A stretch of DNA of 64,000 bases from Candidatus Poseidoniaceae archaeon. GTDB lineage: Archaea > Thermoplasmatota > Poseidoniia > Poseidoniales > Poseidoniaceae. The stretch covers positions 2,316-66,315 of the forward strand of contig JBMTJI010000005.1 in NCBI GenBank assembly GCA_049438185.1. Reading direction: 5' to 3'. Made by a program: the position numbers and the translations under genes. A model generated the notes under the pieces. It searched no databases. It had not been told where the DNA came from and worked only from the letters and a program-made list of their open reading frames with translations. Positions 12,956-63,301 of the stretch are shown here, one piece after another. Position 1 is the first letter of the stretch, and every line of letters starts with the position of its first letter.

Positions 12956-12965
12956 TGCATAACCG

Positions 12966-12972
12966 TATAAAT
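12966..12972. promoter_or_regulatory. AT-rich TATAAAT element in the 46-nt divergent region between the GH57 and GH77 genes
   Basis: Divergent starts are at 12955 and 13002. TATAAAT lies about 30-36 nt upstream of the + gene ATG. Confidence 0.25.
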
Positions 12973-13001
12973 GATAATTTGAAAGGCTTTGCAAAGGACT
13001 G

Positions 13002-14255: not shown

Positions 14256-14300
14256 GGCAAGTTACAAAGAACTCATAACCTGATTAGACGAGCATACGCC

Positions 14301-18691: not shown

Positions 18692-19482
18692 TCCTCACCC
18701 TCCATATCTTCTGGCTGCTTAAACAATGAATTCGCCGTATCGACCAAATCATCGATGTGTTTGCACAAGAATGAACGTACGAAATCATTGGCAGGGTTGT
18801 GGTAAGCTTCCAACGGCGCACAATGTTGTTGCAATTCACCCTTTTCGAGGATTGCAATTCGATCAGCAAGCGTCATTGCTTCGATTTGATCGTGGGTTAC
18901 ATAGATCGTTGTAGTACCAAGTTCGTCGTGCAGACGTCGAATCTCTTGTCGCATTTGATGCCGTAACTCTGCGTCCAAATTTGAGAGAGGTTCGTCCATG
19001 AGGAGAACCTTCGGTCGTCGTACCAATGCTCGTCCAAGCGCAACTCTCTGACGCTGACCTCCACTGAGTTCCTTCGGTTTCTTCCCAAGATGTTCACTGA
19101 GTTCAAGGAGGGTTGAAATCTCATCGACACGGGACGATATTTCATCCTCAGGCAACTTGTTTTCTCCTTTCATCATCCTTAGCCCGAAGGAGAGATTGTC
19201 GCGAATCGACATGTGAGGATACAATGCATAGGATTGGAACACCATACCCAAACCTCGAGCGCCAGCGGGGAGATGATTGACTTTCATTCCATCGATAAGG
19301 ATACTACCCCCTGTCACTTCTTCCAGGCCTGCAAGCATTCGAAGTGTGGTTGACTTACCACAACCTGATGGTCCCAAGAGAACCAAGAATTCCTTGTCCT
19401 TGATGTCAAGATTCAGATTTCTGACAGCATGAAATCCGTCATCGTATCGCTTGTTTACTTCTTCAAATTGTACGTTCACCAT
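18688..19482 (-). CDS. ABC transporter ATP-binding protein (MalK/UgpC-like, without C-terminal regulatory domain)
   Basis: Walker A GPSGCGKST, signature LSGGQRQR, Walker B LLMDEPLSNLD. Track start 19503 is GTG. ATG at 19482 (MVNVQFEEVNKRY) is preferred. Confidence 0.8.
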   Translation of the reverse strand: MVNVQFEEVNKRYDDGFHAVRNLNLDIKDKEFLVLLGPSGCGKSTTLRMLAGLEEVTGGSILIDGMKVNHLPAGARGLGMVFQSYALYPHMSIRDNLSFGLRMMKGENKLPEDEISSRVDEISTLLELSEHLGKKPKELSGGQRQRVALGRALVRRPKVLLMDEPLSNLDAELRHQMRQEIRRLHDELGTTTIYVTHDQIEAMTLADRIAILEKGELQQHCAPLEAYHNPANDFVRSFLCKHIDDLVDTANSLFKQPEDMEGEE

Positions 19483-19486
19483 GTTC

Positions 19487-20734
19487 TCACCCTTTGACGC
19501 CACCTGCGGATAATCCGTCGATCAAAAATTTCTGGAAGAAGAGGAAGAGCAAGGCCACTGGCAGACTGACCAACAGACTTGCGGCCGCAAAATCACCCCA
19601 CGCTTGTCCTGTTGAAGAGATAAGTGAAGCCAATCCAACTGGGAGCGTGTACATGTCGTTTGATGTGTTGAAGGTTAGCGCCAATAAGAATTCATTCCAA
19701 GCAGCCAAGAAACTGAACAGTGCCGTCACAGCGATTGCGGGCGTGGACAACGGTAGGACGACTCTGGTGAACACTTGGAATTGGTTGCATCCATCAAGAG
19801 CAGCAGCCTCTTCAAGTTCTCGTGGTATAGTGTCGAAGAATCCTTTCAACATCCAAACACAGAGAGGTAATGCTGTAACACAATAGGCTAGAATGAGCCC
19901 TAAATGTGAGTTGAGCAAACCGAGGGTCTTCATCACCAAGAAATATGGAACGAGAATAATCACGCCAGGGAACATCTGCACGAGAAGGAACGAGAACATC
20001 GAAACATCACGTCCAGTAAACTTGTAGCGACTAAATGCATATCCAGCAGGAATAGCGATAAACAATCCAAGCAGGGCCGTTCCGATACTCACAATCAGGG
20101 AATTCGTTAACCATGTCCAGAACGAATCACCGTTGAGAATTTTTGAGAAGTGTTCTGTGGTGAATGAATCACCGATTTGTCCGCCGAGAGCATTTCCTTC
20201 CGAGAAGGCAATATCAACAATCCAGATCAAAGGAATGACGGTAATGGCAACAAAGTGAAGGAGCGTAAGGTGAGTGGATGTAGCATGGAATATCTTGCTT
20301 AGATTTGCATTTCGCATCAAACCGTATTCGATCGCAGAATCCGATAGTTTCCTTGACGTCCATACCGTAACAGGCCGCCCCGATAACCAATACAAGGTCA
20401 AGCCTGACGGCAGGATGCTCCAACAATGGATCCAGATGTTGAAAACCGTCACTTCAATGCGTAAGAGTCGATAAACGCCAATTCCAAGCAACATTGCACT
20501 CAGCACCAAGCAACTGTTTCGACGCAGGTGATCGTTGACATTGGGAAGGGATGCGCGAAGCGCTGCAAACAAAGCACAAGTGAGTATTCCAAGGAGAAGC
20601 AGATCGGACTCCGCACGGAGATAATCCACTGTGAGGAGAAGGACGTTGATGAGGAAAGCTGCGACAAGCCAACGTCTCAACATGACGATTTCAATAGGCA
20701 CATACCACCAACGCATGTCCTCTGAATTGGTCAT
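19487..20734 (-). CDS. Carbohydrate ABC transporter permease (MalG-like) with N-terminal extension
   Basis: Contains the permease EAA-loop region EEAAALDGCNQFQVFTRVVLP. An ATG at 20734 gives an ATGA overlap with the upstream fusion gene stop. The track start 20815 would overlap it by 85 nt. Confidence 0.7.
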   Translation of the reverse strand: MTNSEDMRWWYVPIEIVMLRRWLVAAFLINVLLLTVDYLRAESDLLLLGILTCALFAALRASLPNVNDHLRRNSCLVLSAMLLGIGVYRLLRIEVTVFNIWIHCWSILPSGLTLYWLSGRPVTVWTSRKLSDSAIEYGLMRNANLSKIFHATSTHLTLLHFVAITVIPLIWIVDIAFSEGNALGGQIGDSFTTEHFSKILNGDSFWTWLTNSLIVSIGTALLGLFIAIPAGYAFSRYKFTGRDVSMFSFLLVQMFPGVIILVPYFLVMKTLGLLNSHLGLILAYCVTALPLCVWMLKGFFDTIPRELEEAAALDGCNQFQVFTRVVLPLSTPAIAVTALFSFLAAWNEFLLALTFNTSNDMYTLPVGLASLISSTGQAWGDFAAASLLVSLPVALLFLFFQKFLIDGLSAGGVKG

Positions 20735-23352
20735 CGCACCGCCTCCGTAGCATTGGTTTGTTTCATGTATCGCCAAGAGAAGGCAAACAACATCATGAAG
20801 ATGATGACCGACCAAGCGGCAGCCACTCCGTAAGCGCCTTCTCTAAAGGCTACATCATACACATATGTGATCAAAATATCCGTTTGACCAGGCTCACCAA
20901 AGTAGAGATTTGGGCCTCCATCGGTCATCAAATAAATCACGTTGAACATGTTGAACGTCCAAATGAAACCGAGAAGCGTCAGAGGAATCAATGCACTGCG
21001 TAAATTTGGAAGTGTAAGATGCCGGAATGCAGTCCACCCCATGATTCCATCAATTTCAGCAGCTTCGTACATGTTCTTCGGAAGCGATTGTAATGCACCA
21101 CTAATGGACATCATCATGAAGGGAACGCCAAGCCAAATGTTGACAAGAATCACAATAATTTGAGCACCCGTTGGGTCGGAGAGGAAATCGATGTTGGTAC
21201 CCAAGAGATCGTTTACGAATCCATCAGGTTGGAACATCCCTCTCCATACGAGAACCGAGATGTACGAAGGAACAGCCCATGGCAGCAACAACAGTGTGCG
21301 GTACGCCATCTTCCCTTGAATTCGACTGCGATGCAAGAGGATCGCTAGGAAGAGTCCGATACCGATGTGCGCGGATACGTTGACGAAAGTCCAAACGAGT
21401 GTAAACAAGGTCACTCGCAGGAACCCATCAGAGGAAAACACCTCCCAGAAATTGTCCAAACCAATGAACGATTGATCCCCAAGTTGTGTCTGATTTGCAT
21501 CCGTAAAGGCAAGCCAGAACCCGTACAAGACGGGATAAAACGTGAGGATGGCTAAGGCAAGTAAAGCAGGTGCGACGTAGAAATGGGCAAGTTTGGAATT
21601 TGTTCGGCCAAGCCTTGTATCATTCCATTTTGCAAAACTCAACAAGGCGATTAAGGAGAGAACAATTGCACCAAGTGCGAACATGACTGGCGATGTATTG
21701 CCTGCTTGTGGTCGTTCATCGGCTACAGCTGTGCTTCCAGTTGTCGAATAGATCAGCACGCTGTCTGCAAAAACTTCGATTCGATGTTCTTGTTCAGGCA
21801 CCATGCCTGTAAGGTCGCATTGAATCAATTCTGTCGTTTGTGAAATGATTCGAACCTGTCCTTGTTGAAGCAACTCATCGAATCCATCAGTGCATGTATC
21901 GTACCCGAGAATTGTGCCATTGTTTGTAGATTCAAGTCGAATCTGGGTGTGCAAGGCTCCATCAACAAGGATGTCGTACAACGTGGCATTGGTCATCTGA
22001 AATTCGAGTGAAATTGTACGATATCCTTCTGTTAGGGGGTACGGTTCAGCACGAGAAATTGAATCCATTTGCTCCTGAAGTTGTTGGTTGGCACCTGACA
22101 ATGCTTCCTCAGTGGTGGCAATCTCCGAGTAAGCCTGTTCAAAGGCAGTTGACAGTGGGTCATAGACCAGCGACATCGCCCGAGTTGTTGGAGCCGGTGT
22201 TCCTTCTTTGGTTTGCTCGAGGAAACCTGAAAGCACCTCGTCTTCAGTGATTTCAGCATCGAACTCCAAAGCAACATGTGTTGGCATTGTGTACGTGTCA
22301 ACAGCGAATTCTTTCTGAACAGCCTCGGAAGAGAGCCATAGTGCAAGTTCGGTCGCTGCAACCTTGTTGGCACTTTGCTTGCTAACAGTCCAACCTTTGT
22401 AGGTTACAAGCGGTGACATTCGTTCTCCTGAGGTTTCAACCAGCGGCAACAAGGTTTGACCGATGTTTAAGCGACTTGCCTCATACGTAGCCCAATTCCA
22501 CGGGCCATCGAAAATCATCGCAGCTTTCGAGGAGATGAATTGGTTTTTCATGCCTTCAATCTGTGTCCCTGTAGCGACGACACCATGCTCCAACTCCAAA
22601 TCAAGCATCCATCGCATGGCTTCACTGGAACCGTTGGAGTTGAGGGTTGGTTCACCGTTTTCATCAAAAAGTGAGCCGCCGAATCCTTCCTGTATTGGGA
22701 ACCACCAATACGCAGTCTTGATTGGAATTGCAAGTCCTTGCACATCTTGGTAGGTCAATGATTCAGCGGCCTGGAGCAAATCTTGTTCCGTCCAAGTTTC
22801 ATCTGGATAAGCAAGACCTTGTGCATCAAACAATGCTTTGTTAAAGATTAACGAAAGACAATCTTGGCTTGCAGGTACGCCATACAACGAATCACCATAC
22901 CGCATGGCTTGCAATGCTCGCTCTTCGAACTGCGCCCTATCTTGTGGTGTAAGATGAGGACGTAGATCCTCCAGGAGTGGGAAGCCATCAACTCGAACCT
23001 CTCCAATTGCACCCAGTTGATCACTCGAGAGACGCATCAAATCAGGAGCTTGTCCCCCTTGAGCAGCCGTCATGAACAGTTGGTCTGCATTTCCAAATGG
23101 AACCATTGTCACATCAACGGTTATGTTTGGATGTGAAGATTCAAACGAATTGATTGCGTTCATGAACACTTCTTCTTCCTTACTTTCAGCCGCAAATGTA
23201 TGCCAAACCTCAAGTTCAATGATTCCATTTGAAGCGTTTTCTTCCAAATCTTGCTGGCTATTACCAAGGCAACCTGATAAGAAAATCATCGAAAAAAGGA
23301 CAATTGCAAGAAGTCGCTTCCGAGTGGAAGAACCCAGCATCATGCCCTTCAT
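20731..23352 (-). CDS. Fusion protein: lipoprotein-type carbohydrate substrate-binding protein (MalE-like) fused to ABC permease (MalF-like), 873 aa
   Basis: Signal/lipobox MKGMMLGSSTRKRLLAIVLFSMIFLSGCLG. The SBP domain runs to about aa 420. A roughly 130-aa middle domain is followed by a TM helix and a six-TM permease core with EAA-like region EAAEIDGIMGWTAFRHLTLP. It is a single uninterrupted ORF. Confidence 0.75.
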   Translation of the reverse strand: MKGMMLGSSTRKRLLAIVLFSMIFLSGCLGNSQQDLEENASNGIIELEVWHTFAAESKEEEVFMNAINSFESSHPNITVDVTMVPFGNADQLFMTAAQGGQAPDLMRLSSDQLGAIGEVRVDGFPLLEDLRPHLTPQDRAQFEERALQAMRYGDSLYGVPASQDCLSLIFNKALFDAQGLAYPDETWTEQDLLQAAESLTYQDVQGLAIPIKTAYWWFPIQEGFGGSLFDENGEPTLNSNGSSEAMRWMLDLELEHGVVATGTQIEGMKNQFISSKAAMIFDGPWNWATYEASRLNIGQTLLPLVETSGERMSPLVTYKGWTVSKQSANKVAATELALWLSSEAVQKEFAVDTYTMPTHVALEFDAEITEDEVLSGFLEQTKEGTPAPTTRAMSLVYDPLSTAFEQAYSEIATTEEALSGANQQLQEQMDSISRAEPYPLTEGYRTISLEFQMTNATLYDILVDGALHTQIRLESTNNGTILGYDTCTDGFDELLQQGQVRIISQTTELIQCDLTGMVPEQEHRIEVFADSVLIYSTTGSTAVADERPQAGNTSPVMFALGAIVLSLIALLSFAKWNDTRLGRTNSKLAHFYVAPALLALAILTFYPVLYGFWLAFTDANQTQLGDQSFIGLDNFWEVFSSDGFLRVTLFTLVWTFVNVSAHIGIGLFLAILLHRSRIQGKMAYRTLLLLPWAVPSYISVLVWRGMFQPDGFVNDLLGTNIDFLSDPTGAQIIVILVNIWLGVPFMMMSISGALQSLPKNMYEAAEIDGIMGWTAFRHLTLPNLRSALIPLTLLGFIWTFNMFNVIYLMTDGGPNLYFGEPGQTDILITYVYDVAFREGAYGVAAAWSVIIFMMLFAFSWRYMKQTNATEAVR

Positions 23353-41256: not shown

Positions 41257-41871
41257 CTATTCGGATTCAAAGGCATCGACAACTTCCAGAAGTTCCGTAT
41301 CTTCCCCCGCAAGATTATCCGCTAGTTCTTCAGGCGGATTTACGTATGATTTTACACTCCCAAATGGGTTGATTCCTTCATCGATCATGCATAGAAGACG
41401 CCAACGTGGGGCCCATGAAAGATGAACATAAGCAGGACCAGGTAGCAGGAGAACAAACAAAGAAATTCCACTTGGGATATCAAGTATATTGGAATAATCC
41501 AATCCGAGAAGAGCAATTCCGAGGAAGGGCATTGGATAGAGCACAATCCTTGGGGGTGTCATAGGCATCCTATTTGAAAATGAGACGAGAATCAACGATG
41601 AGAATCCGAGAATCAAACAGGCAGACATGAACAAGGCAGAAAACAAAAGCCAATTGGAAAAGGATTCGTTGAGACTGTCGTACCTCAAGATGTACGGGAA
41701 GATCAATGCGAGACTGATGAGGAAGCCGTAGAACATACCAATATTCGCAGGATGTGACAACCATAAGGGGAGTTGAGAAAATCGTCGAGAAAGCGATGTT
41801 CCGAACAGAAGATCCTCATGTTCTGGATCAAGTTCTGAAAGAACTCCAGACCATCGAACGTGACGTTCCAT
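41257..41871 (-). CDS. Hypothetical multi-TM membrane protein
   Basis: Hydrophobic ORF. Start uncertain: the track uses TTG at 41901 and the first ATG is at 41871. Confidence 0.35.
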   Translation of the reverse strand: MERHVRWSGVLSELDPEHEDLLFGTSLSRRFSQLPLWLSHPANIGMFYGFLISLALIFPYILRYDSLNESFSNWLLFSALFMSACLILGFSSLILVSFSNRMPMTPPRIVLYPMPFLGIALLGLDYSNILDIPSGISLFVLLLPGPAYVHLSWAPRWRLLCMIDEGINPFGSVKSYVNPPEELADNLAGEDTELLEVVDAFESE

Positions 41872-41929
41872 GGGTGCGTGCTGACAGGTTGAGGTTTTCA
41901 ATGCACCCGTTGATGCATCATAGATTCGC

Positions 41930-42568
41930 CTATTCTTGACGCATCAGTTTCTTGGCAATGGGTCCTGCAGCGTCTTCAAGTTCCATTTCTTCAGGCCAGT
42001 CGCGGTCGAGTAAACCGTAATCCATGGATTCTCGATGACGAGCATCCTCAATCTCGTCTTCGACCTCATTTTGCGCATCACGTAGGGCGAGTGATTGATT
42101 CAGAAGAGCCATCGTTCGACGAAGCGTTGCACCAATGGTTTTCTCATCAGTAAAGTAGCCAAGGATGGAATAATCATCATCCATTGCAACCAAATTATAC
42201 CCTGAGAGTAAATCATCTTCGATGAGCCTGTATCGATGACTACCCGCCTTCAGCCAACGCCCATCATGCAATCGTATCATCACTTCCGCTTCTTTGTCGG
42301 AATCCAATTCCATCATTGGATGCGATGGACTTACTGCAAAAGGAGTTCGTTGCCAATCCTGCCACTGTTGCAAACCAAAGGCGAGAATCAAAAGGAACAT
42401 CCCCCCTAGGAATGCACTGACGATGGATGAGCCAAAGACAAGGATACCGAGGACTGGAACAACAAGAAAAACGCTGAACCGTAAAAACAGCGTGCGCGAG
42501 TGTTCCTGTGCTTTCGGCGTTTGTGAGAATACAATGAAATGCGAGGGAAGGCCATCATCAAACTTCAT
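41930..42568 (-). CDS. Hypothetical membrane protein (2 TM plus soluble domain)
   Basis: Track start is TTG. The adjacent ATG at 42568 overlaps the DUF309 gene stop. Confidence 0.4.
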   Translation of the reverse strand: MKFDDGLPSHFIVFSQTPKAQEHSRTLFLRFSVFLVVPVLGILVFGSSIVSAFLGGMFLLILAFGLQQWQDWQRTPFAVSPSHPMMELDSDKEAEVMIRLHDGRWLKAGSHRYRLIEDDLLSGYNLVAMDDDYSILGYFTDEKTIGATLRRTMALLNQSLALRDAQNEVEDEIEDARHRESMDYGLLDRDWPEEMELEDAAGPIAKKLMRQE

Positions 42569-42960
42569 CAATCACTCACCTCGCTGCTAAGAGGAAGTCG
42601 AACGTTTTCATAGCTTTGTTGCCATTGGCCGACATCTTCAACGTAAACAGCGATGTTCAACAGATGTTGTTCAATGTCAAATCCCCATGCTGTTTTCCAA
42701 GATGTCAACTTTGGCACCAATTTTTCCCATTGATTGGTAACACCTCGTTCTTTTTGGCGTTGATGATTGTACAGCAACGCTGCTGTCTGTATGAGGCCTT
42801 GAACAAGCAAGATTTCAGTTTGCAATGCGTTTCGACGTTTGAGTGAATTCCAAAGATCCTCCCAAGCTTCATGGGCATGCCAATACCGACCATTGTCGAA
42901 CTCATGTCGACCTTGCTCAAGCAAAACCGCTTCCTCATCAGAAAGTGGGGATGCCTCCAT
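42568..42960 (-). CDS. DUF309-family protein
   Basis: FDNGRYWHAHEAWEDLW motif. Track start 43017 is GTG. ATG at 42960 gives about 130 aa. Confidence 0.5.
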   Translation of the reverse strand: MEASPLSDEEAVLLEQGRHEFDNGRYWHAHEAWEDLWNSLKRRNALQTEILLVQGLIQTAALLYNHQRQKERGVTNQWEKLVPKLTSWKTAWGFDIEQHLLNIAVYVEDVGQWQQSYENVRLPLSSEVSD

Positions 42961-43063
42961 GTTTGGCCGAAAGCATCGACCATTGAAATGCTTCTCATTT
43001 GGCATCAAGGGACACACAGTTCAAAAGATAAAAGCAAATCTAAGGGTTAGCGGGGTGAGGTAA

Positions 43064-44740
43064 TTGGTCGATTTTATTCCAGGCGATACGTTGGAATCAA
43101 GGCGTGGCGGCGTTGACGTTCTCCGGCATCTCGCTCAAGAATTAGCAACGCTGGAACGTAATGGCTCGATTCAAATCCAACGGCATATTCCGAATGTTGG
43201 CGAACGAATTGGCCACCTGCTTATCGTTGATGGTACACTTGCTGCTGCATTTCATCAGGCCGATGTCCAACGATATGGAATTGAAGCTCTCCTTGAGATT
43301 GAATCGGATGCTTCAGCACTCGATGCATCAATGAGCCTTCACGAAATGCTGGAGTCAACGTACATCAACATCCTCTCGAAATACCCGGAGGCAAGTCTAC
43401 TTGCCGACGAGAAGGAGGAAAAAGATGAGACATGGTGGACGGCCGTTAGGACGCCACGTCGTCGGATTGAACGCGAAGAGCGTTTGCCTGAACTCAAACC
43501 CAGTGTTTCCGTTCCGGAGGCGTTGCGGCGTCGAAGTGAAGCCCGAATGCGAACCCAAGGAGGCCCTGTTCTCCAGCGAGGTCAGGCATGGCTTGAGAAT
43601 TCCATTGAACCTGACGATACCTTTCAACTGGCAAGAATCTTGATTGAAAACAACATCCCAATTCAGATTATTTCAAGACAATCACCTCCACGTATGGAAT
43701 CAACATACAACATCGAGGCCAACCATTATCGATGGCTATCTGAATCAGAACACGAATGCACACTGGAACCATCACTTGAATCGATTCGCCGGACTGTGGA
43801 GACTTTCATTGAGGAGAACACCAAAAGTGTCCTCTTCATTGAAGGCATTGAATATCTCTCTGGCATCCATGGTGAGCAACGTGTCATCGAGATGATTCGC
43901 AGCATCGTTGACCACACGCGAGCGAGTGGAAACATGCTCTTTGTTTCATCAAATCTTGAAGCGTTTACAGTTCAACAACGATCTCGATTGCAACGAGAAT
44001 TCTCCAACCTTGAGAATAATCAACTCCAATCATGGTTATTGGATACTGAACTCCTTGTGGAGCATCCATTCTTCTTGACGGTAGATGAAGATGAGGAGGA
44101 CGTTATGAATCAGCACATTGAATCCAATGTACAAGATCCTGTTTTTGCACCGCTACAAGAAGTCGAACCGCCCGTGCAGCAGGTACCTTTGCCTGTTGAA
44201 CACCAGACCATGAAAATCGATGAAGCCTTGCAATCGAAAATGATGGAATGGGCCATGGATGACGACGAGAATGCGGATGAAGGAACGGCCGTTGAGGAAC
44301 CACGCATGGTAGAGAAGCACGTCGAAATCCAAGTCAAACCCCGAACCCCTCAGCGCATGGTTCGAAAGCGAAGGCCAACCGTCAAACCAAACAAACGGCA
44401 TTCCATTGACGCAGCAGCAAATCGAGAGATTACACTTCCTTCATTACAGGAACCGGATTCTTCCCAAGCCAAACCATTTGTTCCACTCAATGCATCAAAG
44501 GAACACGTATTCCCTCCATCAAAACCTCTCCTTGACCAGCAAGGAATGAAGCAGGCTGCTGCCGTTCCTTCTGGAAAGAAAGTAGCCATTTTCCCACCCA
44601 TCAAAGCAACAGGTCATGTCCCGATTGCCATCACGAAGCCAGGACAAAGACAAGCGTCAGTCAAGAAATCACCTCATGCCCGAGAGCATGCTGCATCTTC
44701 ACAGCGTCTGCCGGATGACGACTCGGAGGGCAATGCATGA
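43064..44740 (+). CDS. Multidomain protein: N-terminal globular domain, DUF835-like central domain (recalled, needs HMM check), long low-complexity Pro/Lys-rich tail
   Basis: TTG start preceded by GGTGAGG. The central VLFIEGIEYLSGIHGEQRVIEMIRSIVDHTRASGNMLFVSS resembles the archaeal DUF835 core. The C-terminal roughly 200 aa are low complexity. Confidence 0.5.
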   Translation: MVDFIPGDTLESRRGGVDVLRHLAQELATLERNGSIQIQRHIPNVGERIGHLLIVDGTLAAAFHQADVQRYGIEALLEIESDASALDASMSLHEMLESTYINILSKYPEASLLADEKEEKDETWWTAVRTPRRRIEREERLPELKPSVSVPEALRRRSEARMRTQGGPVLQRGQAWLENSIEPDDTFQLARILIENNIPIQIISRQSPPRMESTYNIEANHYRWLSESEHECTLEPSLESIRRTVETFIEENTKSVLFIEGIEYLSGIHGEQRVIEMIRSIVDHTRASGNMLFVSSNLEAFTVQQRSRLQREFSNLENNQLQSWLLDTELLVEHPFFLTVDEDEEDVMNQHIESNVQDPVFAPLQEVEPPVQQVPLPVEHQTMKIDEALQSKMMEWAMDDDENADEGTAVEEPRMVEKHVEIQVKPRTPQRMVRKRRPTVKPNKRHSIDAAANREITLPSLQEPDSSQAKPFVPLNASKEHVFPPSKPLLDQQGMKQAAAVPSGKKVAIFPPIKATGHVPIAITKPGQRQASVKKSPHAREHAASSQRLPDDDSEGNA

Positions 44741-46563
44741 GTATTGAGCGAACCAACCGCTTGCGCATTGCTTTGCAAAAGGCCAAAGCAGGCCTATCTG
44801 ATGAACAAAAGACCAAGGCCGATAATCCTTCAAAACTCGGCCAACTCCTCAACAAGCCATCATCGGTTTCAAAGGAGCGACGGTTCATACAGTCACAACC
44901 CATCCATGAGCGCCCACTCATGAAAGCGATCACAAAGGAAATTTTGGGAGACGATGTGGCCTATAACCCGACCATTGAATTTGAACGCCAACATCCTGTT
45001 TCACGATTGAAAAATCTACGAGAACGAAGTTTCGATGATTCAATTCCAGAAGGCAGTTTAGGCGATAAAATCGGCTTTTCTTCAACCGGCCAACCACTCT
45101 GGTCATCCATTCTCGACGAACAACGTCAGATGCCTCTTAACGCCCTCGATTCGAAGTTATCAAGCCCAGTTCAAGGAGAAAGAGTTCATCACTCGACCGT
45201 TCTTTCAAGCCAATTGAATTGGCCTCAACGATTGGAAATGAACCAACGTAAAACTTTCAAGCAGTGGAACGTCAATGCTGAAAACAATCAGGCCACCATG
45301 GTGTGTGAATCAATTATCGACCATTTGGGCGACCGCCATAATCCTCACATCATCATCGGAACCAACGACACCGGCAAAAGCCATCTTTTGCATGCTACAG
45401 GTCAGAGTGGTTTGCGTTATTTTGAAGGTGATGTTCGCATTCTACGGGCAACTGAACTTCTTGATCTGGACGCCTTACCCACGGATTGGCAAGAGGCGAT
45501 TTCTACGACATCACTCCTCTTGATCGATGACGTCCACCTTATTGCAAATCATGAACATCACGCACAGAAGGTTGGTCATATCATAGACCATGCACTCAAT
45601 CTTGGTGTTCACGTATTGTGTACATCAACCTCACATCCAAGTGACTGGCCGTCGTCTCGAAGTTGGGAATTGTTACGATATGCTTCCGTTTCAATCATTC
45701 AACCCGTTTCTGATGCGAGCCTAGCGACGCACATCCGGCATCAAGCATCCCTGTTGGGCATGCTTTTTGAAGACGCACACATCATGGAGATACTCCATCA
45801 TTCAGGAGCGTCTTGGAGAGGTGTTGAAGCATCCATATCCATGCTCAAAGACGCCTATGAGCGAGGAGAGAATATCCTCGATCCCGAAGATGTTGTATTC
45901 ATTCTCAAAGGCCAATCGTCACAACAATCTACCGATGAAGACGCCATCAAGGAACCATCAATTTCTCTTGCAACGGACATCCTCAAGCGGGCAACAGATG
46001 TTGTTTACTCAGAAGTTGATGTAGGTGGCATCGAACTTCATTCTTCTGCCCTCGATGTTGAGGAGGACGATTGGGAACCAACGTTGGTGACCCCAGAAGA
46101 TCTCTCAACTGCCAATGATATGCTCGAGATGCATCTTCGTACAACTTTGGAAGAATTGACCCCAGAAGCCCCAACAGTTCTCGATGTGGATGCAAGAGAT
46201 CGTCATCTAACGCATCAACTCGGAACGATCAATGCTGATGACATTGAACGTACGGCAGATGTTCTCGCAGGAATAGATGCGAACATTGACCAGGTTTTGG
46301 CAGAGCGAGAGAGGCTCATGGTTCGTGACGACCTACGATTGCGTCACCTTGAATTCAAGATGGAAGAACTCCTCGAGCGTACTGCTCATGCAGATGCCAA
46401 TGAATTGATCGATATTGTTGATGAGTTGAGAGAGATTGAGCACGAACTCGGTTTGGTCAGCGAAGATGCGATGGAGGCCTTCGAAATGGAAGATGAGGAA
46501 ATCAAAATTGCTCACCTCTCAACCATCAAACCCGCGACTCGACTTTTGGGTGAACAAGAATGA
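44737..46563 (+). CDS. DnaA-domain-III-like AAA+ ATPase without DNA-binding domain; disordered N-terminus and acidic coiled-coil C-terminus
   Basis: ATGA overlap with the upstream gene. Walker A GTNDTGKSHLLHATG, Walker B LLLIDDVHLI and sensor region ANHEHHAQKVGHIIDHALNLGVHVLCTSTSHP. These parallel the DnaA motifs GxGKTHLLHAIG, LLIDDIQF and ANKER...IILTSDRxP. Confidence 0.55.
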   Translation: MSIERTNRLRIALQKAKAGLSDEQKTKADNPSKLGQLLNKPSSVSKERRFIQSQPIHERPLMKAITKEILGDDVAYNPTIEFERQHPVSRLKNLRERSFDDSIPEGSLGDKIGFSSTGQPLWSSILDEQRQMPLNALDSKLSSPVQGERVHHSTVLSSQLNWPQRLEMNQRKTFKQWNVNAENNQATMVCESIIDHLGDRHNPHIIIGTNDTGKSHLLHATGQSGLRYFEGDVRILRATELLDLDALPTDWQEAISTTSLLLIDDVHLIANHEHHAQKVGHIIDHALNLGVHVLCTSTSHPSDWPSSRSWELLRYASVSIIQPVSDASLATHIRHQASLLGMLFEDAHIMEILHHSGASWRGVEASISMLKDAYERGENILDPEDVVFILKGQSSQQSTDEDAIKEPSISLATDILKRATDVVYSEVDVGGIELHSSALDVEEDDWEPTLVTPEDLSTANDMLEMHLRTTLEELTPEAPTVLDVDARDRHLTHQLGTINADDIERTADVLAGIDANIDQVLAERERLMVRDDLRLRHLEFKMEELLERTAHADANELIDIVDELREIEHELGLVSEDAMEAFEMEDEEIKIAHLSTIKPATRLLGEQE

Positions 46564-47018
46564 GAGGTGCTTGGTGGGCCGATGGAGTTCGGTTCTCTTG
46601 CCAACCTGACTGCGGTCGCTGTTGCGATGAACCTGGCGGAATTGTGTATCTTTCTCGCACCGATGCACAACGGCTCGCAGACCATGCAGGCCTAAGCGTA
46701 CAAGAATATCTCAGAAGGGATTGCACAACCACCTTGGATGGACGTTATGTACTACGCTCAAACCAGTCCGATGGAATTTGTATTTATCTCGATGAGAAGA
46801 AGCAATGCACCATCTACAACGTTCGTCCTCAGCAGTGCAAAGCCTTCCCATGGTGGGCAGAAAATCTCCGCAGTAAGCGCTCATGGAACCAAGTGAAATC
46901 GACGTGCCCAGGATTAACAGCTGAGGATGCGATTCTGATCAGTGGAGATGAAATCAAACTTCATGTCCATGCTGATCGACAATCAACCCAAGGTTTTCGC
47001 GTCTGGCAAGAAACCTAA
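46560..47018 (+). CDS. YkgJ-family Cys-cluster (CxxCxxCC) protein
   Basis: CQPDCGRCCDEPGGIVYL...CIYLDEKKQCTIYNVRPQQCKAFPW. ATGA overlap with the upstream gene. Confidence 0.65.
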   Translation: MRGAWWADGVRFSCQPDCGRCCDEPGGIVYLSRTDAQRLADHAGLSVQEYLRRDCTTTLDGRYVLRSNQSDGICIYLDEKKQCTIYNVRPQQCKAFPWWAENLRSKRSWNQVKSTCPGLTAEDAILISGDEIKLHVHADRQSTQGFRVWQET

Positions 47019-47064
47019 TTCGGTGTAGTTTCGCACACCTTGCGGATTCCTTTTCGTCCTTTCC

Positions 47065-60498: not shown

Positions 60499-63258
60499 TC
60501 ACTCGGTCGTTTCGCCTTCTTCCGAAGCGGCCATGGTGAGGTCGTCGTCTTTCTTACCGGCCATAGCGAAGTGCATGATGACTAGAGCGATACCACCCAC
60601 GTAAAGCAACAATCCAACGTAATCGAAGCCATTGTCAAAGTTCATCCACCAGCCCATGAGTTCTTGGTTCTGGACGATGGCACTTTCCATGTCTTCAGCA
60701 TCGCCGTCTTCAATCTCTGAACCCTGAACAATTTGGAATACAGGTTGGAGGTCAGACATCGCAGGAGTTGATGCGAGATCGGTTCCTGTGCGTGTGTCAA
60801 GGTAGAAGGTTGATGTCGAATCACCAGCGATGATGAGGCCGGAGATTTCTTCAGACTTCATGTTAATTTCGCTACCAAAGTAAACAGGAAGTGCAGGTGT
60901 CATTGCATCAAGGAGCGAGTAACTCTTGATGAGTTTCGCAGTGATTGGGTTTGTTGTTGCATCGACAGATGCAGAGCACACATCGACTGGGATGTCCTTG
61001 ACTTCACCGTCACCGGTGCATGTCACTTCAGTAACAGCGTAGCCACCAGCGTTGACTTTGTCACCGTCACCAGTGAGGAAACCACCAGTTGTTCCATCAA
61101 GTGTTTCAACAGTGATGAGACCGAACGTTGCATTCATCATGTTAGTGTTGCGCCATGAGAGTTCGTTTGATCCGTCCTCAGAGACAGCTTCACCCTTTTC
61201 ACAGTCTGCATTGTGTCCAGTGCACATAACGTAGACAGAAGCAGGTCCAGTGGAGACGCCACCGGATCCGTAGTAGGTTTCGTTGGTTTCCAACGTAGCC
61301 CATCCTGCGGATGGAGCGGTTGGGTCTTCAGCGACCATCATGCTGACTGGGTCAAACCATCCATAGAGCCAATTGTTGAGTGGCATAGTCATGTATGGAC
61401 CTTGGCTACCGAAACTGTCAACGAGGAATCCTGGGACGAAGTCACCATAGATGACACTCATCATCAGGGTTCGGAGTGCGTTTGCAGCGTTTGCATCGAC
61501 TCCATAGAGTGCAGAAACGGTTGTTGCGTTCCATTCCATTGGTGCACCAGGACCCATGGTTGCAAAGTCGATTGGAGGCGTCATACCAGTAAGTTCACCG
61601 TACAGGAAGAGCGTTGCACCTGTTGTGGTAGTAAGTCCAAGATCACCGTAGAGGATGTTTCCTGACACTGCAGCGTCGAGAGCAATCGAAGGCGCACCTT
61701 CCGAGGCAGGTACAAGGGCAGTACCCCAAGCACCACCGAGGTTGAGGCTGTTGTCGAGGTAGCCACCGTTGACTGGATCTTCGTTACCGAATGTTACGTT
61801 GACGAATTGTTCCGCAGTCATGGTACCGGTTCCACCGAGGAGTGCCATTGGAAGAGAGGAGGCGCTGGACAACCAGCCTCCAGCCCATGTTGCGATAGCG
61901 CCGTATTGTGTTGGATCGAGTCCGTAAGCGCTCATTGCATCGGCTGCTTCCATACCCATGAAGTTAGCAAGTCCAAAGGAAGTACCTTCCTCATTGGTTG
62001 CGAAGAGACCCATTGGATCATCTGTGCCTTGTCCTCCAAAGAGAAGGCCCATAGCTAGAGCGTTGTCGATATCGACACCGAGGTAGTTCATGAGTCGAGT
62101 TGAAGCATCAATGGCCATTGCATCAGCGAACCAGTCGTCATCGGCTCCACCGTGAATCATCGAGAAGGTTCCTGCAACACCGAAACAAATTGCAAAGTCC
62201 ATTGCTATTGTAGCGTTGATGTCAGAGGGATTCAAGAATCCCCAAACGCCTGCACGCTGAAGAACACCAGTCGTGAAAGCGGGGCTGTTGGCGAGATCGG
62301 CCGATACAGAAGCATAGTCGTAATCCTCTGTTGGCATTGCATCGCAGTGTCCAGCAAGCAAAAGAACACCTTGCATGTCTGTGAGTGCGGCATTTTCTGT
62401 TCCAAACATAGCAGTGTCGAAAGCCGTCGAAAGGTCACCAATTGAGGCGTTTCCTGCGAAGGTAATTGCAGACTCGTTACCAGGACCGCCTGCTTCAGCA
62501 AGTTGCAATCCTTGAATCGCCGTAGTGTAATTAATCATCTCCCCGTTACCCGTCATGTTGTTCATTTCGGATCCATTGATGAGAGCGAAGTAGTCATTAA
62601 ACGCATCATACCATCCAACACCAATCATCATCGAGGCAGTGGCAGCATCAACTGCTGCACCACCGGTCATAGCACCGGCTTGGATGCCCATGTAAGACAT
62701 CTCAAGGTCATCTGCAGTCTTCTTTGCAGCGGAGAAGGATTCCAATTCAATGGCCATGACACCAGCAGAGAATCCAACCTTGGTCAAATCCATGACCCCT
62801 TCAATAGCCATTCCAGTTGCTCCAACAACTTGTGGTTGGAACGGAATGTTGAGTTGTGTGATTGGTGTGTTACAATCCTCAGGATCGTCCATTGCACACG
62901 TGAATACCTTGGATTCATCGTAGGTGAGTGTACCCGCATCCTTGTCGAATGCGATAATGTTTCGAGTGGTTGTAATCTCGTAATCAAACGGACCCAACTT
63001 CTCGTAGACAGGAGCTTCTCCAGCCATTACAGCATCAGCATTGGTCAAGTTCCAAGCGTAGTAACTGCGGTCAGAGGTGGACGATGCCCAGTCTTCTTCA
63101 GCGGTCGTACAGTCCGAATCAGCACATGCTGAATCGTATGGATAGGTTTCAAAGTTGTCTTCAACTGCGCCTTCAACCATACTTGTTGCAATCGGTGCTA
63201 GTACGACCAAATTCAGTAGAATCATGACTGCGCCAGCGATTAATTTTTCATTTCCCAT
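60499..63258 (-). CDS. Large Gly/Ala/Met/Thr-rich cell-surface protein with signal peptide and C-terminal TM anchor
   Basis: ATG at 63258 (MGNEKLIAGAVMILLNLVVLAPIATS). The track start 63276 is GTG. C-terminus VGLLLYVGGIALVIMHFAMAGKKDDD. No catalytic motifs recognised. Confidence 0.55.
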   Translation of the reverse strand: MGNEKLIAGAVMILLNLVVLAPIATSMVEGAVEDNFETYPYDSACADSDCTTAEEDWASSTSDRSYYAWNLTNADAVMAGEAPVYEKLGPFDYEITTTRNIIAFDKDAGTLTYDESKVFTCAMDDPEDCNTPITQLNIPFQPQVVGATGMAIEGVMDLTKVGFSAGVMAIELESFSAAKKTADDLEMSYMGIQAGAMTGGAAVDAATASMMIGVGWYDAFNDYFALINGSEMNNMTGNGEMINYTTAIQGLQLAEAGGPGNESAITFAGNASIGDLSTAFDTAMFGTENAALTDMQGVLLLAGHCDAMPTEDYDYASVSADLANSPAFTTGVLQRAGVWGFLNPSDINATIAMDFAICFGVAGTFSMIHGGADDDWFADAMAIDASTRLMNYLGVDIDNALAMGLLFGGQGTDDPMGLFATNEEGTSFGLANFMGMEAADAMSAYGLDPTQYGAIATWAGGWLSSASSLPMALLGGTGTMTAEQFVNVTFGNEDPVNGGYLDNSLNLGGAWGTALVPASEGAPSIALDAAVSGNILYGDLGLTTTTGATLFLYGELTGMTPPIDFATMGPGAPMEWNATTVSALYGVDANAANALRTLMMSVIYGDFVPGFLVDSFGSQGPYMTMPLNNWLYGWFDPVSMMVAEDPTAPSAGWATLETNETYYGSGGVSTGPASVYVMCTGHNADCEKGEAVSEDGSNELSWRNTNMMNATFGLITVETLDGTTGGFLTGDGDKVNAGGYAVTEVTCTGDGEVKDIPVDVCSASVDATTNPITAKLIKSYSLLDAMTPALPVYFGSEINMKSEEISGLIIAGDSTSTFYLDTRTGTDLASTPAMSDLQPVFQIVQGSEIEDGDAEDMESAIVQNQELMGWWMNFDNGFDYVGLLLYVGGIALVIMHFAMAGKKDDDLTMAASEEGETTE

Positions 63259-63301
63259 AGGTGTTCCCCAACTCACTTGGTGAACGGTTTACTACTTAAC
63301 T

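What the first reader, a model, noticed from the sequence alone, without database searches (positions are those of the whole stretch)
43064..47018. Three-gene operon: DUF835-like multidomain protein, DnaA-like AAA+ ATPase lacking a DNA-binding domain, and a YkgJ Cys-cluster protein
Three + strand genes are joined by ATGA overlaps.
- Gene 1 has an N-terminal globular domain, a central segment resembling the archaeal DUF835 core (recalled from memory) and a roughly 200-aa Pro/Lys-rich disordered tail.
- Gene 2 has a roughly 180-aa disordered N-terminus and then an AAA+ module whose Walker A, Walker B and sensor regions track bacterial DnaA domain III motif for motif: GKSHLLHATG, LLLIDDVHLI, ANHEHH...VLCTSTSHP. 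It ends in an acidic coiled coil instead of a helix-turn-helix domain IV, which is Hda-like architecture.
- Gene 3 is a YkgJ-family CxxCxxCC protein.
DnaA-type ATPases are not the archaeal initiator, so a DBD-less DnaA-like ATPase coupled to two unknown partners is a candidate regulatory or structural system of unknown role.
Basis: partly seen in the sequence, partly recalled or inferred. Interest (0 to 1): 0.65.

Follow-up and report, generated by a model that had tools for sequence, protein, structure and literature searches.

The report
Archaeal DnaA-like ATPase with iKaiC partner
Marine Group II archaea (Poseidoniales) carry a conserved, uncharacterised pair of co-translated genes, an inactivated KaiC-like scaffold protein and a bacterial-DnaA/Hda-type AAA+ protein with no DNA-binding domain. 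This is unexpected because archaea do not use DnaA, and in half of the lineages the protein has lost its catalytic P-loop lysine yet stays under strong selection.

Summary
Three + strand genes (43064-44740, 44737-46563, 46560-47018) are joined by ATGA overlaps. They score as DUF835 (E 5e-18), Bac_DnaA ATPase (E 1.6e-11; no domain I or IV) and CxxCxxCC/YkgJ (E 9e-11).

Sequence profiles and the AlphaFold model both put gene 2 next to DnaA domain III and Hda. It is not close to Orc1/Cdc6, and DnaC/IstB score far lower. The gene 1 core is a RecA-fold "inactivated KaiC" with no P-loop.

The window is from a Poseidoniaceae (Marine Group II) archaeon. I found the family only in Poseidoniales: 181 GTDB species genomes, 64 representative clusters at 50% identity, and no viral or defence-system hits.

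The 4-bp gene1/gene2 overlap survives down to about 25-30% protein identity. Gene 3 is adjacent but is inverted in three lineages and missing in one.

The Walker A lysine is replaced (R, C, G or T) in 50 of 100 unique orthologues. Walker B, the box VII Arg and the sensor II Arg persist, and dN/dS stays near 0.1.

My reading is that genes 1 and 2 encode an order-specific two-protein nucleotide-binding assembly switch or scaffold, and that gene 3 is only loosely attached. The cellular role is unknown. It is a new variant of a known kind, of moderate to high interest.

The parts
43052..43060 (+). Shine-Dalgarno-like GGGGTGAGG upstream of the gene 1 TTG start
   Evidence: Read directly from the sequence. 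Orthologue N-termini align to this start.
43064..44740 (+). Gene 1, 558 aa: family-specific N-domain, inactivated KaiC (DUF835) core, acidic then basic disordered tail
   Evidence: ORF. Pfam DUF835 E 5.3e-18. 149 homologues, all named Poseidoniales or Thermoplasmatota. AlphaFold model.
43064..43399 (+). Gene 1 N-terminal domain (aa 1-112), the best-conserved part of the protein, with no known family
   Evidence: Mean conservation 0.53 against 0.44 for the core. Predicted alpha-beta-beta-beta-alpha-alpha topology at pLDDT about 50-60. No Pfam or PDB sequence match. Found only in fragments of the same family.
43568..44068 (+). Gene 1 DUF835 / iKaiC RecA-fold core (aa 169-335), no P-loop
   Evidence: pLDDT 83-88. 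Foldseek hits to FlaH/ArlH 4yds (3.6e-5), KaiC CI and RecA. No [AG]xxxxGK[ST] in the sequence. DUF835 is classed as iKaiC in PMC5847659.
44069..44737 (+). Gene 1 disordered tail: acidic segment (aa 336-420, net -19), then basic Pro/Lys-rich segment (aa 421-558, net +12) carrying the conserved motifs KPRTPQR.VRKRK, FPPIK and SPHAREHA
   Evidence: pLDDT below 50. Charge and composition. Conserved motifs.
44725..44740 (+). Gene1/gene2 junction: SD-like GGAGGG, then the ATGA start/stop overlap (translational coupling)
   Evidence: Sequence. The 4-bp overlap is kept in about 78 of 90 loci, including the most divergent ones.
44737..46563 (+). Gene 2, 608 aa: DnaA/Hda-clade AAA+ protein with no DNA-binding domain
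   Evidence: ORF. Pfam Bac_DnaA. NCBIfam DnaA and Hda hits far below their cutoffs. PDB profile search. Foldseek.
44737..45216 (+). Gene 2 N-terminal region (aa 1-160): conserved helix at aa 3-18 plus short invariant motifs in an otherwise low-confidence segment
   Evidence: No Pfam hit.
45217..45912 (+). Gene 2 AAA+ module (aa 161-392), equivalent to DnaA domain III including the lid
   Evidence: pLDDT 77-91. Aligns to DnaA 8btg residues 100-323. Target TM 0.79-0.80 to DnaA domain III and Hda.
45358..45381 (+). Walker A, GTNDTGKS (aa 208-215). The lysine is intact in this window but is replaced by R, C, G or T in 50 of 100 orthologues
45514..45531 (+). Walker B, LLLIDD (aa 260-265). The DD pair is kept in 97%
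45655..45660 (+). Box VII Ser-Arg (S307, R308), the putative arginine finger (compare Hda ASRLDWG and DnaA SRF.WG). R is kept in 89%
   Evidence: The correspondence to the Hda/DnaA motif is my inference from known motif sequences.
45814..45819 (+). Sensor II Trp-Arg (W360, R361). W kept in 95%, R in 84%
45913..46560 (+). Gene 2 family-specific acidic C-terminal half: conserved DVVYSD..GGIELH and LTPEAPSVLD motifs, a long helical hairpin (aa 500-583) and a terminal GE(E/Q)E
   Evidence: AlphaFold helices at 500-551 and 554-583, pLDDT 73-86. Net charge -36 over aa 393-583. GEEE-type C-terminus in about 75 of 100. No Pfam hit apart from noise.
46548..46563 (+). Gene2/gene3 junction: SD-like GGGTGA, then an ATGA overlap. 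This junction is lineage-variable
   Evidence: Sequence. Variability.
46560..47018 (+). Gene 3, 152 aa: YkgJ-family CxxCxxCC Cys-cluster protein, co-transcribed here but only loosely linked across the order
   Evidence: Pfam PF03692 E 8.7e-11. Orientation and presence vary. Rate covariation with genes 1 and 2 gives partial r 0.42-0.62.
47030..47056 (+). Hairpin plus T-rich tract after gene 3, a possible end of the transcript
   Evidence: Terminator-like site. The count of such sites is not above the shuffled expectation, so this is weak evidence.

Best explanation
Genes 1 and 2 encode the two subunits of a machine found only in Poseidoniales. They are made in coupled amounts through a conserved ATGA stop/start overlap.

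Gene 2 is a DnaA/Hda-clade AAA+ module that has lost every DnaA DNA-binding element: domains I and IV are absent, the initiator-specific motif is shortened, and it carries no basic residues. I propose that gene 2 uses nucleotide binding and box VII arginine-mediated subunit contacts as an assembly or conformational switch, not as a motor or an origin binder.

Gene 1 is a P-loop-less RecA-fold (inactivated KaiC, DUF835) protein with a family-specific N-domain and a long tail rich in short conserved motifs. I propose that it is the platform or adaptor that gene 2 docks on. Two known precedents have this geometry: DnaC-type AAA+ proteins on the RecA-fold DnaB ring, and KaiC-like ArlH on ArlI. The oppositely charged tails (gene 1 basic, gene 2 acidic) and the short motifs would recruit further partners.

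Gene 3 (YkgJ-type Cys-cluster protein) is co-transcribed in this genome but is not an obligate member.

**Shown:** the domain identities, the absence of a DNA-binding domain, restriction to one order, conserved translational coupling, motif conservation with the lysine replaced, and purifying selection.

**Inferred:** physical interaction of the two proteins, the switch-not-motor mechanism, and the docking geometry.

**Unknown:** which cellular process it serves.
For: **Identity**
- Pfam, NCBIfam, PDB profile and fold searches agree on both domain assignments.

**Coupling**
- ATGA plus an SD-like element is present in the window.
- The 4-bp overlap is kept in about 78 of 90 loci. That includes L082, L083, L085 and L089, where gene 2 is only about 25-35% identical and gene 1 ranges from 510 to 1100 aa.
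- Genes 1 and 2 both evolve fast (median Kimura distance 1.64 and 1.32, against 0.15-0.28 for flanking housekeeping genes). After removing species divergence their rates co-vary (partial r 0.56, Mantel p 0.001), whereas gene 1 against the upstream neighbours gives 0.03.

**Switch rather than motor**
- The Walker A lysine is K in 50, R in 38, C in 10, G in 1 and T in 1 of 100 unique orthologues. Walker B DD is kept in 97%, the box VII R in 89% and the sensor II R in 84%.
- dN/dS is 0.08-0.11 in the K, R and C classes alike.

**No DNA-binding apparatus**
- There are no domain I or IV hits.
- There is a 6-residue deletion in the initiator-specific-motif region relative to DnaA (alignment). That segment (LDLDALPTDWQEAIS) has no basic residues.

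**Chromosomal, vertically inherited, not mobile**
- The collinear context is the same in all loci.
- There are no PADLOC hits, no relatives on viral contigs, and only a weak PHROG DnaC-like hit.
Against: - No direct evidence shows that the two proteins touch. A complex prediction was not possible with these tools.
- The family exists in only one order, where the whole neighbourhood is collinear. Gene-neighbourhood logic therefore cannot separate functional linkage from inherited gene order.
- The rate-covariation test is crude. Distances are saturated and clade structure is only partly removed. It also links gene 3 as strongly as gene 2 (partial r 0.62 and 0.42), which cuts against demoting gene 3.
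- Lys-to-Arg in a P-loop may retain some hydrolysis, and the copy in this window has an intact GKS, so a true ATPase cycle is not excluded.
- AlphaFold confidence is low outside the two cores (mean pLDDT 66 and 59).
- The neighbourhood is purely metabolic and gives no clue to the cellular process.
Confidence: 0.5

Rival explanations
1. Hda-like trans-regulator. Gene 2 would donate its box VII arginine finger to another initiator- or clamp-loader-type AAA+ protein of the archaeon (Orc1/Cdc6, RFC or MCM) to trigger its ATP hydrolysis. That would control replication initiation, as Hda does with DnaA in bacteria. Gene 1 would be the adaptor that times or localises this.
For: - The fold and profile are as close to Hda as to DnaA.
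- The arginine finger is kept in 89% while the protein's own P-loop lysine is dispensable. This matches Hda logic, in which Hda's own hydrolysis is not needed (established knowledge of RIDA).
- Orc1/Cdc6 belongs to the same initiator clade of AAA+ proteins.
Against: - There is no clamp-binding or PIP-like motif.
- There are no replication genes or GC-skew inflection near the locus.
- Walker B and sensor II of gene 2 itself stay conserved, which suggests its own nucleotide site still matters.
- Nothing connects iKaiC domains to replication.
Confidence: 0.12
2. DNA- or chromatin-associated filament. Gene 2 would polymerise like DnaA, DnaC or IstB, while the basic disordered tail of gene 1 supplies the nucleic-acid binding that gene 2 lacks. 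Together they would form a nucleoprotein scaffold for chromosome organisation or segregation.
For: - DnaA-clade AAA+ proteins typically form helical oligomers on DNA (established knowledge).
- The gene 1 tail is basic (median net +12 across orthologues) and has a conserved KPRTPQR.VRKRK motif.
- Gene 2 has a long coiled-coil hairpin, a feature common in structural proteins.
Against: - The DnaA ssDNA-contacting region is shortened and acidic or hydrophobic in gene 2.
- Both proteins are strongly acidic overall.
- The gene 1 tail varies from 0 to about 500 aa, and its charge ranges from -47 to +23 among orthologues.
- No recognised DNA-binding fold is present.
Confidence: 0.12
3. Obligate three-component system. 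The YkgJ-type Cys-cluster protein (gene 3) would be a functional partner of genes 1 and 2, for example a metal- or redox-sensing input.
For: - There is an ATGA overlap with gene 2 in this window and in most Poseidoniaceae.
- Gene 3 stays adjacent to gene 2 in nearly every lineage, even when it is inverted.
- Its rate covaries with gene 1 (partial r 0.62) and with gene 2 (0.42), more than either does with the upstream neighbours.
Against: - Gene 3 is on the opposite strand in L082, L085/L086 and L089, and absent from L019/L020, where citrate synthase follows gene 2 directly.
- The junction length is variable.
- Gene 3 evolves about three times more slowly (median distance 0.47 against 1.3-1.6).
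- Citrate synthase and other housekeeping genes are equally "adjacent" throughout the order.
Confidence: 0.25
4. No functional coupling. The genes are merely neighbours in a collinear genome. Gene 2 acts alone, or is a decaying relic of a horizontally acquired bacterial dnaA/hda.
For: - The entire neighbourhood, from the aminotransferase to the GDPD gene, is collinear across the order.
- The Walker A lysine is lost in half of the lineages.
Against: - dN/dS is about 0.1 in all classes.
- Dozens of invariant residues lie outside the AAA+ core.
- The 4-bp overlap is preserved while flanking intergenic distances and the orientation of gene 3 change.
- The family is present in 181 species-level genomes.
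Confidence: 0.08
5. Mobile-element or antiviral defence module. The known archaeal "DnaA-like" ATPases are virus- or plasmid-borne.
For: - Archaeal DnaA-like AAA+ proteins described so far are associated with viruses or mobile elements (SSV DnaA-like arCOG07960; PMC4158269).
- Genes 1 and 2 evolve fast.
Against: - The chromosomal position is fixed, in a conserved housekeeping context, in every genome examined.
- There are no PADLOC hits and no relatives in 2.9 million viral contigs.
- The PHROG hit is weak (E 4.5e-4) and is to a DnaC-like loader.
- No integrase, transposase or tRNA flank is present.
Confidence: 0.03

Closest known systems
Bacterial DnaA, domain III (AAA+ initiator module; PDB 8bv3, 8btg, 1l8q, 2z4r)
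   Same: It is the best sequence and structural match across the whole AAA+ module including the lid. The shared elements are the N-terminal TFxxF/W...N..A lead-in, NPL..G....GK[ST]HL Walker A, LLIDD Walker B, the box VII Ser-Arg and the sensor II Arg.
   Different: - It has no domain I, no domain IV helix-turn-helix and no DnaA-box binding.
- The initiator-specific-motif region is 6 residues shorter and lacks basic residues.
- It scores 51.6 bits against the equivalog cutoff of 343.9.
- It carries family-specific 160-aa N-terminal and 215-aa acidic coiled-coil C-terminal extensions.
- The Walker A lysine is not conserved.
- The host is an archaeon, which initiates replication with Orc1/Cdc6.
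Hda / HdaA (DnaA-related regulatory inactivator; PDB 3bos, 5x06)
   Same: It is a DnaA-type AAA+ protein that ends after the lid and has no DNA-binding domain. It has a box VII motif of S-R-L-(x)-W type and target TM 0.74-0.80. In both proteins the arginine finger may matter more than the protein's own hydrolysis.
   Different: - It has no N-terminal clamp-binding motif.
- It is about 2.5 times longer.
- It scores 48.3 bits against a cutoff of 194.8.
- Hda's partners, DnaA and the beta clamp, do not exist in archaea.
- It is coupled to an iKaiC protein, which Hda is not.
DnaC / DnaI / IstB helicase-loader-type AAA+ proteins working on RecA-fold DnaB rings
   Same: The architectural analogy is an N-terminal extension followed by a DnaA-clade AAA+ domain with no DNA-binding domain, encoded next to and probably acting on a protein with a RecA-fold core and its own N-domain. 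This supplies a plausible docking geometry.
   Different: - Sequence similarity is much weaker than to DnaA (IstB 5.6e-5, DnaC 2.4e-3, PHROG DnaC-like 4.5e-4).
- The RecA-fold partner is a DUF835 iKaiC with no P-loop, not a helicase.
- Archaea use MCM.
DUF835 / inactivated KaiC (iKaiC) output domains of archaeal signal transduction (PF05763; Galperin et al. 2018, PMC5847659)
   Same: The gene 1 core passes the Pfam threshold. It has a RecA/KaiC/ArlH-like fold and no Walker A.
   Different: - Described DUF835 proteins are REC-DUF835 or PAS-DUF835 response regulators or membrane-anchored forms.
- Here the domain sits between a novel N-domain and a long charged tail.
- It is translationally coupled to a DnaA-like AAA+ protein, a pairing I found in no paper.
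YkgJ / CxxCxxCC family (PF03692)
   Same: Gene 3 passes the Pfam threshold. It has the N-terminal Cys cluster and the C-terminal C...C..Y..RP..C..FP pattern.
   Different: The family has no established function. The literature search returned only incidental mentions. Its link to genes 1 and 2 is lineage-variable.

Membership tests
DnaA (chromosomal replication initiator) | AAA+ domain III with Walker A/B, box VII Arg and sensor II Arg | tested here: met
   Pfam Bac_DnaA 45.1 bits against a cutoff of 23. Aligned to DnaA 8btg residues 100-323. Motifs present in the window copy. Foldseek target TM 0.79-0.80.
DnaA (chromosomal replication initiator) | C-terminal domain IV helix-turn-helix that binds DnaA boxes (Bac_DnaA_C) | tested here: not met
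   No Pfam hit at E<=0.1 on the whole protein or at E<=10 on aa 362-608. AlphaFold shows an acidic helical hairpin there instead.
DnaA (chromosomal replication initiator) | N-terminal domain I (DnaA_N) for self- and helicase interaction | tested here: not met
   No Pfam hit on aa 1-168 at E<=10.
DnaA (chromosomal replication initiator) | Full-length equivalog score (TIGR00362 cutoff 343.9) | tested here: not met
   51.6 bits.
DnaA (chromosomal replication initiator) | Initiator-specific motif with ssDNA-contacting residues | tested here: inconclusive
   Two short helices remain between beta2 and beta3 (aa 238-243 and 251-256). The segment is 6 residues shorter than in DnaA (gap in the alignment) and has no basic residues. 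The mapping to the E. coli H and B motifs rests on my recollection of the numbering.
Hda (DnaA regulatory inactivator) | DnaA-type AAA+ protein with no domain IV | tested here: met
Hda (DnaA regulatory inactivator) | N-terminal beta-clamp-binding motif (QL[SP]LPL type) | tested here: not met
   A regex search of gene 2 found none. No archaeal PIP-box-like motif was found either.
Hda (DnaA regulatory inactivator) | Equivalog score (TIGR03420 cutoff 194.8) and compact size of about 230-250 aa | tested here: not met
   48.3 bits and 608 aa.
Hda (DnaA regulatory inactivator) | Acts on DnaA-ATP together with a DNA-loaded beta clamp | not testable with these tools
   By established knowledge archaea lack DnaA and the beta clamp. 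Neither is in the window.
DnaC / IstB helicase-loader or transposition AAA+ | Family HMM above threshold (IstB NF038214 cutoff 200; Pfam IstB_IS21) | tested here: not met
   IstB scores 22.9 bits. There is no Pfam IstB_IS21 hit for the window protein. DnaC 6qel gives E 2.4e-3.
Orc1/Cdc6 (archaeal initiator) | Orc/Cdc6-type AAA+ domain plus a C-terminal winged helix | tested here: not met
   No Orc/Cdc6 family appears in the Pfam, NCBIfam or PDB profile results, or among the top 50 Foldseek hits.
DUF835 / iKaiC (PF05763) | Pfam gathering score | tested here: met
   65.5 bits against 33.1, covering profile positions 8-136 of 136.
DUF835 / iKaiC (PF05763) | RecA/KaiC-like fold without a functional Walker A | tested here: met
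   Foldseek hits to FlaH, KaiC CI and RecA. No P-loop pattern in gene 1.
YkgJ / CxxCxxCC (PF03692) | Pfam gathering score and the Cys-cluster pattern | tested here: met
   42.8 bits against 23, covering profile positions 2-85 of 85. The cysteines are visible in the translation.
Anti-phage defence systems (PADLOC) | Any component HMM hit | tested here: not met
   No hits for genes 1-3 or the three upstream genes.

The most novel reading that the evidence does not exclude
A bacterial-type initiator AAA+ module (DnaA/Hda lineage) was captured by the ancestor of Marine Group II archaea, stripped of its DNA-binding domains and paired with an inactivated KaiC ring. The result would be a new cell-cycle or replication-control switch: the AAA+ subunit docks on the RecA-fold ring (DnaC-on-DnaB-like geometry) and acts through its arginine finger on an archaeal replication ATPase. 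This would be an archaeal counterpart of RIDA built from different parts.
Probability: 0.12. Interest if true: 0.85.

Novelty: new variant of a known kind. Interest (0 to 1): 0.58.

Why it matters
Poseidoniales (Marine Group II) are among the most abundant archaea in the surface ocean. They remain uncultured, so their order-specific core genes are the main clues to how their cell biology differs from other archaea.

A vertically inherited chromosomal DnaA/Hda-type AAA+ protein is unexpected in an archaeon. The previously noted archaeal "DnaA-like" ATPases are viral or plasmid-borne. Its obligatory pairing with an inactivated KaiC domain connects two ATPase superfamilies that are each proposed to act as regulatory hubs.

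The natural K, R and C series at the Walker A lysine, all under equal purifying selection, works as a ready-made experiment on how an AAA+ initiator module can function as a switch or pseudo-ATPase.

If the pair turns out to regulate replication or the cell cycle, it would be a new solution to a classic problem. If it is a structural scaffold, it still defines a lineage marker and a tractable target for heterologous biochemistry.

Tried and rejected
1. **Gene 1 N-domain.** From memory its pattern looked like DUF4388/PATAN-type domains. That is not supported. Pfam found nothing at E<=10 on the window copy or on 12 diverse orthologues. A PDB profile search returned only designed proteins. A profile search of 5.8 billion proteins returned only truncated fragments of the same family.
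2. **Origin of replication or replication context.** GC skew shows no inflection, and 30 neighbouring genes are metabolic or housekeeping.
3. **Defence or mobile-element origin.** PADLOC found nothing, PHROGs gave only a weak hit, phage tblastn gave weak AAA+-only hits, and two viral-contig scans found nothing.
4. **Literature.** I found no paper on the pair or on DnaA-like proteins in Marine Group II. The key KaiC-hub paper (PMC5717392) is not held, so the iKaiC description is second-hand, via PMC5847659.
5. **Motifs.** Regex searches for clamp-binding or PIP motifs were negative.
6. **Promoter and terminator scans.** These were not above the shuffled expectation and are not suited to archaea.
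8. **Unused resource.** I did not use the third fold search. The low-confidence regions that remain unexplained would have given meaningless matches.
9. **Not possible here.** A complex (multimer) prediction could not be run with the tools.

Full report
**1. Observation**

The three + strand ORFs exist exactly as described: gene 1 at 43064-44740 (558 aa, TTG start), gene 2 at 44737-46563 (608 aa) and gene 3 at 46560-47018 (152 aa). Bases 44737-44740 and 46560-46563 both read ATGA. Each junction has a Shine-Dalgarno-like element, GGAGGG or GGGTGA, about 7 nt upstream of the downstream ATG. A GGGGTGAGG element precedes the gene 1 TTG, and orthologue N-termini align to that start. A hairpin plus T-tract follows gene 3, but such sites are not enriched over shuffles, so this is weak evidence.

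**2. What the proteins are**

Pfam gives DUF835 for gene 1 (E 5.3e-18, aa 186-313), Bac_DnaA for gene 2 (E 1.6e-11, aa 168-303) and CxxCxxCC for gene 3 (E 8.7e-11). All three are above the gathering thresholds.

For gene 2:
- NCBIfam ranks DnaA (7.6e-14) and Hda (8.6e-13) far ahead of IstB (5.6e-5). All are far below the equivalog cutoffs.
- A profile of 33 orthologues hits solved DnaA structures across the whole of domain III including the lid (8btg 2.7e-13, 1l8q 1.2e-10, 2z4r 2.5e-7). DnaC scores only 2.4e-3, and nothing of Orc1/Cdc6 type appears.
- The AlphaFold model is confident for aa 160-390 (pLDDT 77-91).
- Its best Foldseek matches are DnaA domain III (8bv3 at E 2e-12 and target TM 0.79; 2z4r at 0.80) and Hda (3bos at 0.74; 5x06 at 0.80). 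RuvB and RFC follow about five orders of magnitude behind.
- There is no domain I or domain IV signal. After the lid comes a family-specific acidic region with a long helical hairpin (aa 500-583) and a terminal GE(E/Q)E.

For gene 1:
- The core (aa 170-330, pLDDT 83-88) matches FlaH/ArlH, KaiC-CI and RecA and has no P-loop. This agrees with the published classification of DUF835 as an inactivated KaiC ("iKaiC") domain (PMC5847659).
- The N-domain (aa 1-112) is the most conserved part of the protein but matches nothing known.
- The tail is acidic and then basic and carries conserved short motifs.

**3. Organism and distribution**

Source names on the homologues identify the window as Candidatus Poseidoniaceae, that is Marine Group II in the phylum Thermoplasmatota.
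- A scan of one genome per GTDB species found 181 genomes with a gene 2 relative. The 80 loci that were retrieved are all Poseidoniales, apart from two obviously mis-binned "bacterial" MAG contigs.
- An exhaustive HMM search of 1.84 billion representatives found 64 clusters at E<=1e-30. Beyond those, the hits are ordinary DnaA and a separate family of tandem-DnaA-domain proteins.
- I fetched contigs for five of the most divergent representatives (P0264, P0266, P0284, P0286, P0294). All lie in the same collinear context: aminotransferase, two hypothetical genes, sometimes DUF309, gene 1, gene 2, the CxxCxxCC gene, citrate synthase and GDPD.

The family therefore appears to be an order-specific, vertically inherited chromosomal feature.

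**4. Linkage**

Gene 1 sits immediately upstream of gene 2 in 80 of 81 loci. The exception is cut by a contig end. The 4-bp stop/start overlap is kept in about 78 of 90 loci, including lineages where gene 1 is 510, 714, 835 or 1100 aa long and gene 2 is only 25-35% identical to the window copy.

Because the whole neighbourhood is collinear, adjacency alone says little. Preservation of the overlap while other junctions drift is the better evidence.

Gene 3 behaves differently. It has a 4-bp overlap in most Poseidoniaceae but gaps of 2-131 bp elsewhere. It lies on the opposite strand in L082, L085/L086 and L089, and it is absent in L019/L020.

I also ran a crude evolutionary-rate-covariation test, using partial Mantel correlations that control for two housekeeping neighbours:

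| Pair | Partial r |
|---|---|
| gene 1 - gene 2 | 0.56 |
| gene 1 - gene 3 | 0.62 |
| gene 2 - gene 3 | 0.42 |
| gene 1 - either upstream membrane-protein gene (up213 or up214) | 0.03 |
| gene 2 - upstream membrane-protein genes | 0.23 (up213), 0.32 (up214) |

This modestly supports a functional tie among all three genes, so gene 3 cannot be dismissed. It is simply not an obligate operon member.

**5. Catalytic site**

Over 100 unique orthologues:

| Site | Conservation |
|---|---|
| Walker A lysine | K 50, R 38, C 10, G 1, T 1 |
| Walker B DD | 97% |
| Box VII S-R | 87% / 89% |
| Sensor II W-R | 95% / 84% |

The replacements are phylogenetically coherent. R is found in a large Poseidoniaceae subclade with 660-730-aa proteins, and C in the Poseidonia-type genomes. 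They therefore reflect a few events rather than fifty. The window copy and most of the deep lineages retain GK[ST].

Median dN/dS is 0.077 (K class), 0.097 (R class) and 0.107 (C class), so the lysine-less proteins are not decaying.

The box VII context SSRLWE resembles Hda ASRLDWG and DnaA SRF.WG. On that basis I read R308 as the arginine finger, which is an inference from known motifs. HMMER's own alignment is offset by four residues there.

The region equivalent to the DnaA initiator-specific motif is 6 residues shorter and has no basic residues.

**6. Mechanism**

The conserved requirement seems to be nucleotide binding and inter-subunit contacts, not turnover. I therefore favour an assembly or conformational switch, or a scaffold, built from a DnaA-derived AAA+ oligomer and an iKaiC platform produced in coupled amounts.

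Two precedents make docking of such a module on a RecA-fold ring plausible: DnaC on DnaB, and the KaiC-like ArlH on ArlI. This is an analogy, not evidence.

The complementary charges of the gene 1 tail (+12) and the gene 2 C-terminal half (-36), together with the many short conserved motifs, suggest further intra-complex or partner contacts.

The cellular process is unknown. The neighbourhood is metabolic, and there is no origin-like skew change.

The rivals are weighed in the Rival explanations section: an Hda-like trans-regulator of an archaeal replication ATPase, a DNA-associated filament, an obligate three-gene system, no coupling at all, and a mobile or defence element.

**7. Comparison with known families**

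- Gene 2 works like, and descends from, the DnaA/Hda lineage, but it fails the membership tests for DnaA (no domains I or IV, sub-threshold score) and for Hda (no clamp motif, wrong size, sub-threshold score, no partners in archaea).
- Gene 1 is a bona fide DUF835/iKaiC protein in a new architecture.
- Gene 3 is a bona fide YkgJ-family protein.
- Archaeal "DnaA-like" ATPases noted before are from viruses or plasmids (PMC4158269). This family is not.
- Automatic annotations already label these proteins "DnaA ATPase domain-containing", "DnaA/Hda family" and "DUF835 domain-containing". I found no paper that discusses them or the pairing.

**8. Verdict**

- Novelty: a new variant of a known kind.
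- Interest: 0.58. A core, order-wide DnaA-type module in an abundant uncultured archaeal group, with a natural pseudo-ATPase series, is surprising and experimentally approachable, but no function can yet be assigned.

Noticed in passing
window 41257-43017 (- strand): 42568-43017 DUF309; 41930-42571 and 41257-41901 predicted membrane proteins: Three genes of unknown function are transcribed divergently from gene 1: a DUF309 protein and two proteins with hydrophobic, membrane-like segments and no Pfam hit. The set is conserved next to the pair across Poseidoniales, although DUF309 is missing in many loci. Their rates covary only weakly with gene 2 (partial r 0.23-0.32) and not with gene 1 (0.03).
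   Followed up: partly
window 60499-63276 (- strand): A 925-aa protein has a significant CD36-family Pfam hit (E 4.6e-13, aa 62-155). CD36/SCARB is mainly a eukaryotic lipid-scavenger family, so an archaeal homologue is unusual.
   Followed up: no
P0299, P0310 and about 40 similar representatives (not in the window): A separate family of ~650-aa proteins has two tandem, strongly scoring Bac_DnaA AAA+ domains (E down to 1e-104) and apparently no domain IV. They turned up as the next-best hits to the gene 2 profile. Their organisms and functions were not examined.
   Followed up: no
L082 11404-12126: In one divergent high-GC lineage, a 240-aa active-looking KaiC/RadB-like ATPase gene (Pfam ATPase PF06745, AAA_25, DUF7125) is inserted between the CxxCxxCC gene and citrate synthase, close to the iKaiC/DnaA-like pair.
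   Followed up: no
L003 (CAXQWT010000063.1, labelled Salipiger bermudensis MAG) and L004 (CALDQY010000035.1, labelled Rhodobiaceae MAG): Two contigs filed under bacterial MAGs carry the complete Poseidoniales locus at 77-79% identity to the window protein. This indicates archaeal contamination or mis-binning in those public assemblies.
   Followed up: no
window 8486-23352: A large alpha-glucan utilisation cluster is present. It holds a 1502-aa GH57 enzyme with a glucodextranase-type SLH-like C-terminal module, a GH77 4-alpha-glucanotransferase, a glycogen-phosphorylase-like protein and a 917-aa alpha-amylase with a CBM48-like module. Next to it is an ABC sugar transporter whose 873-aa component fuses a solute-binding protein to a permease domain.
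   Followed up: no
L019 and L020 (two Poseidoniaceae genomes): Both the CxxCxxCC gene and the DUF309 gene are missing from the locus in the same two genomes, while genes 1 and 2 and the other neighbours remain. The joint loss may hint at a link between those two small proteins.
   Followed up: no
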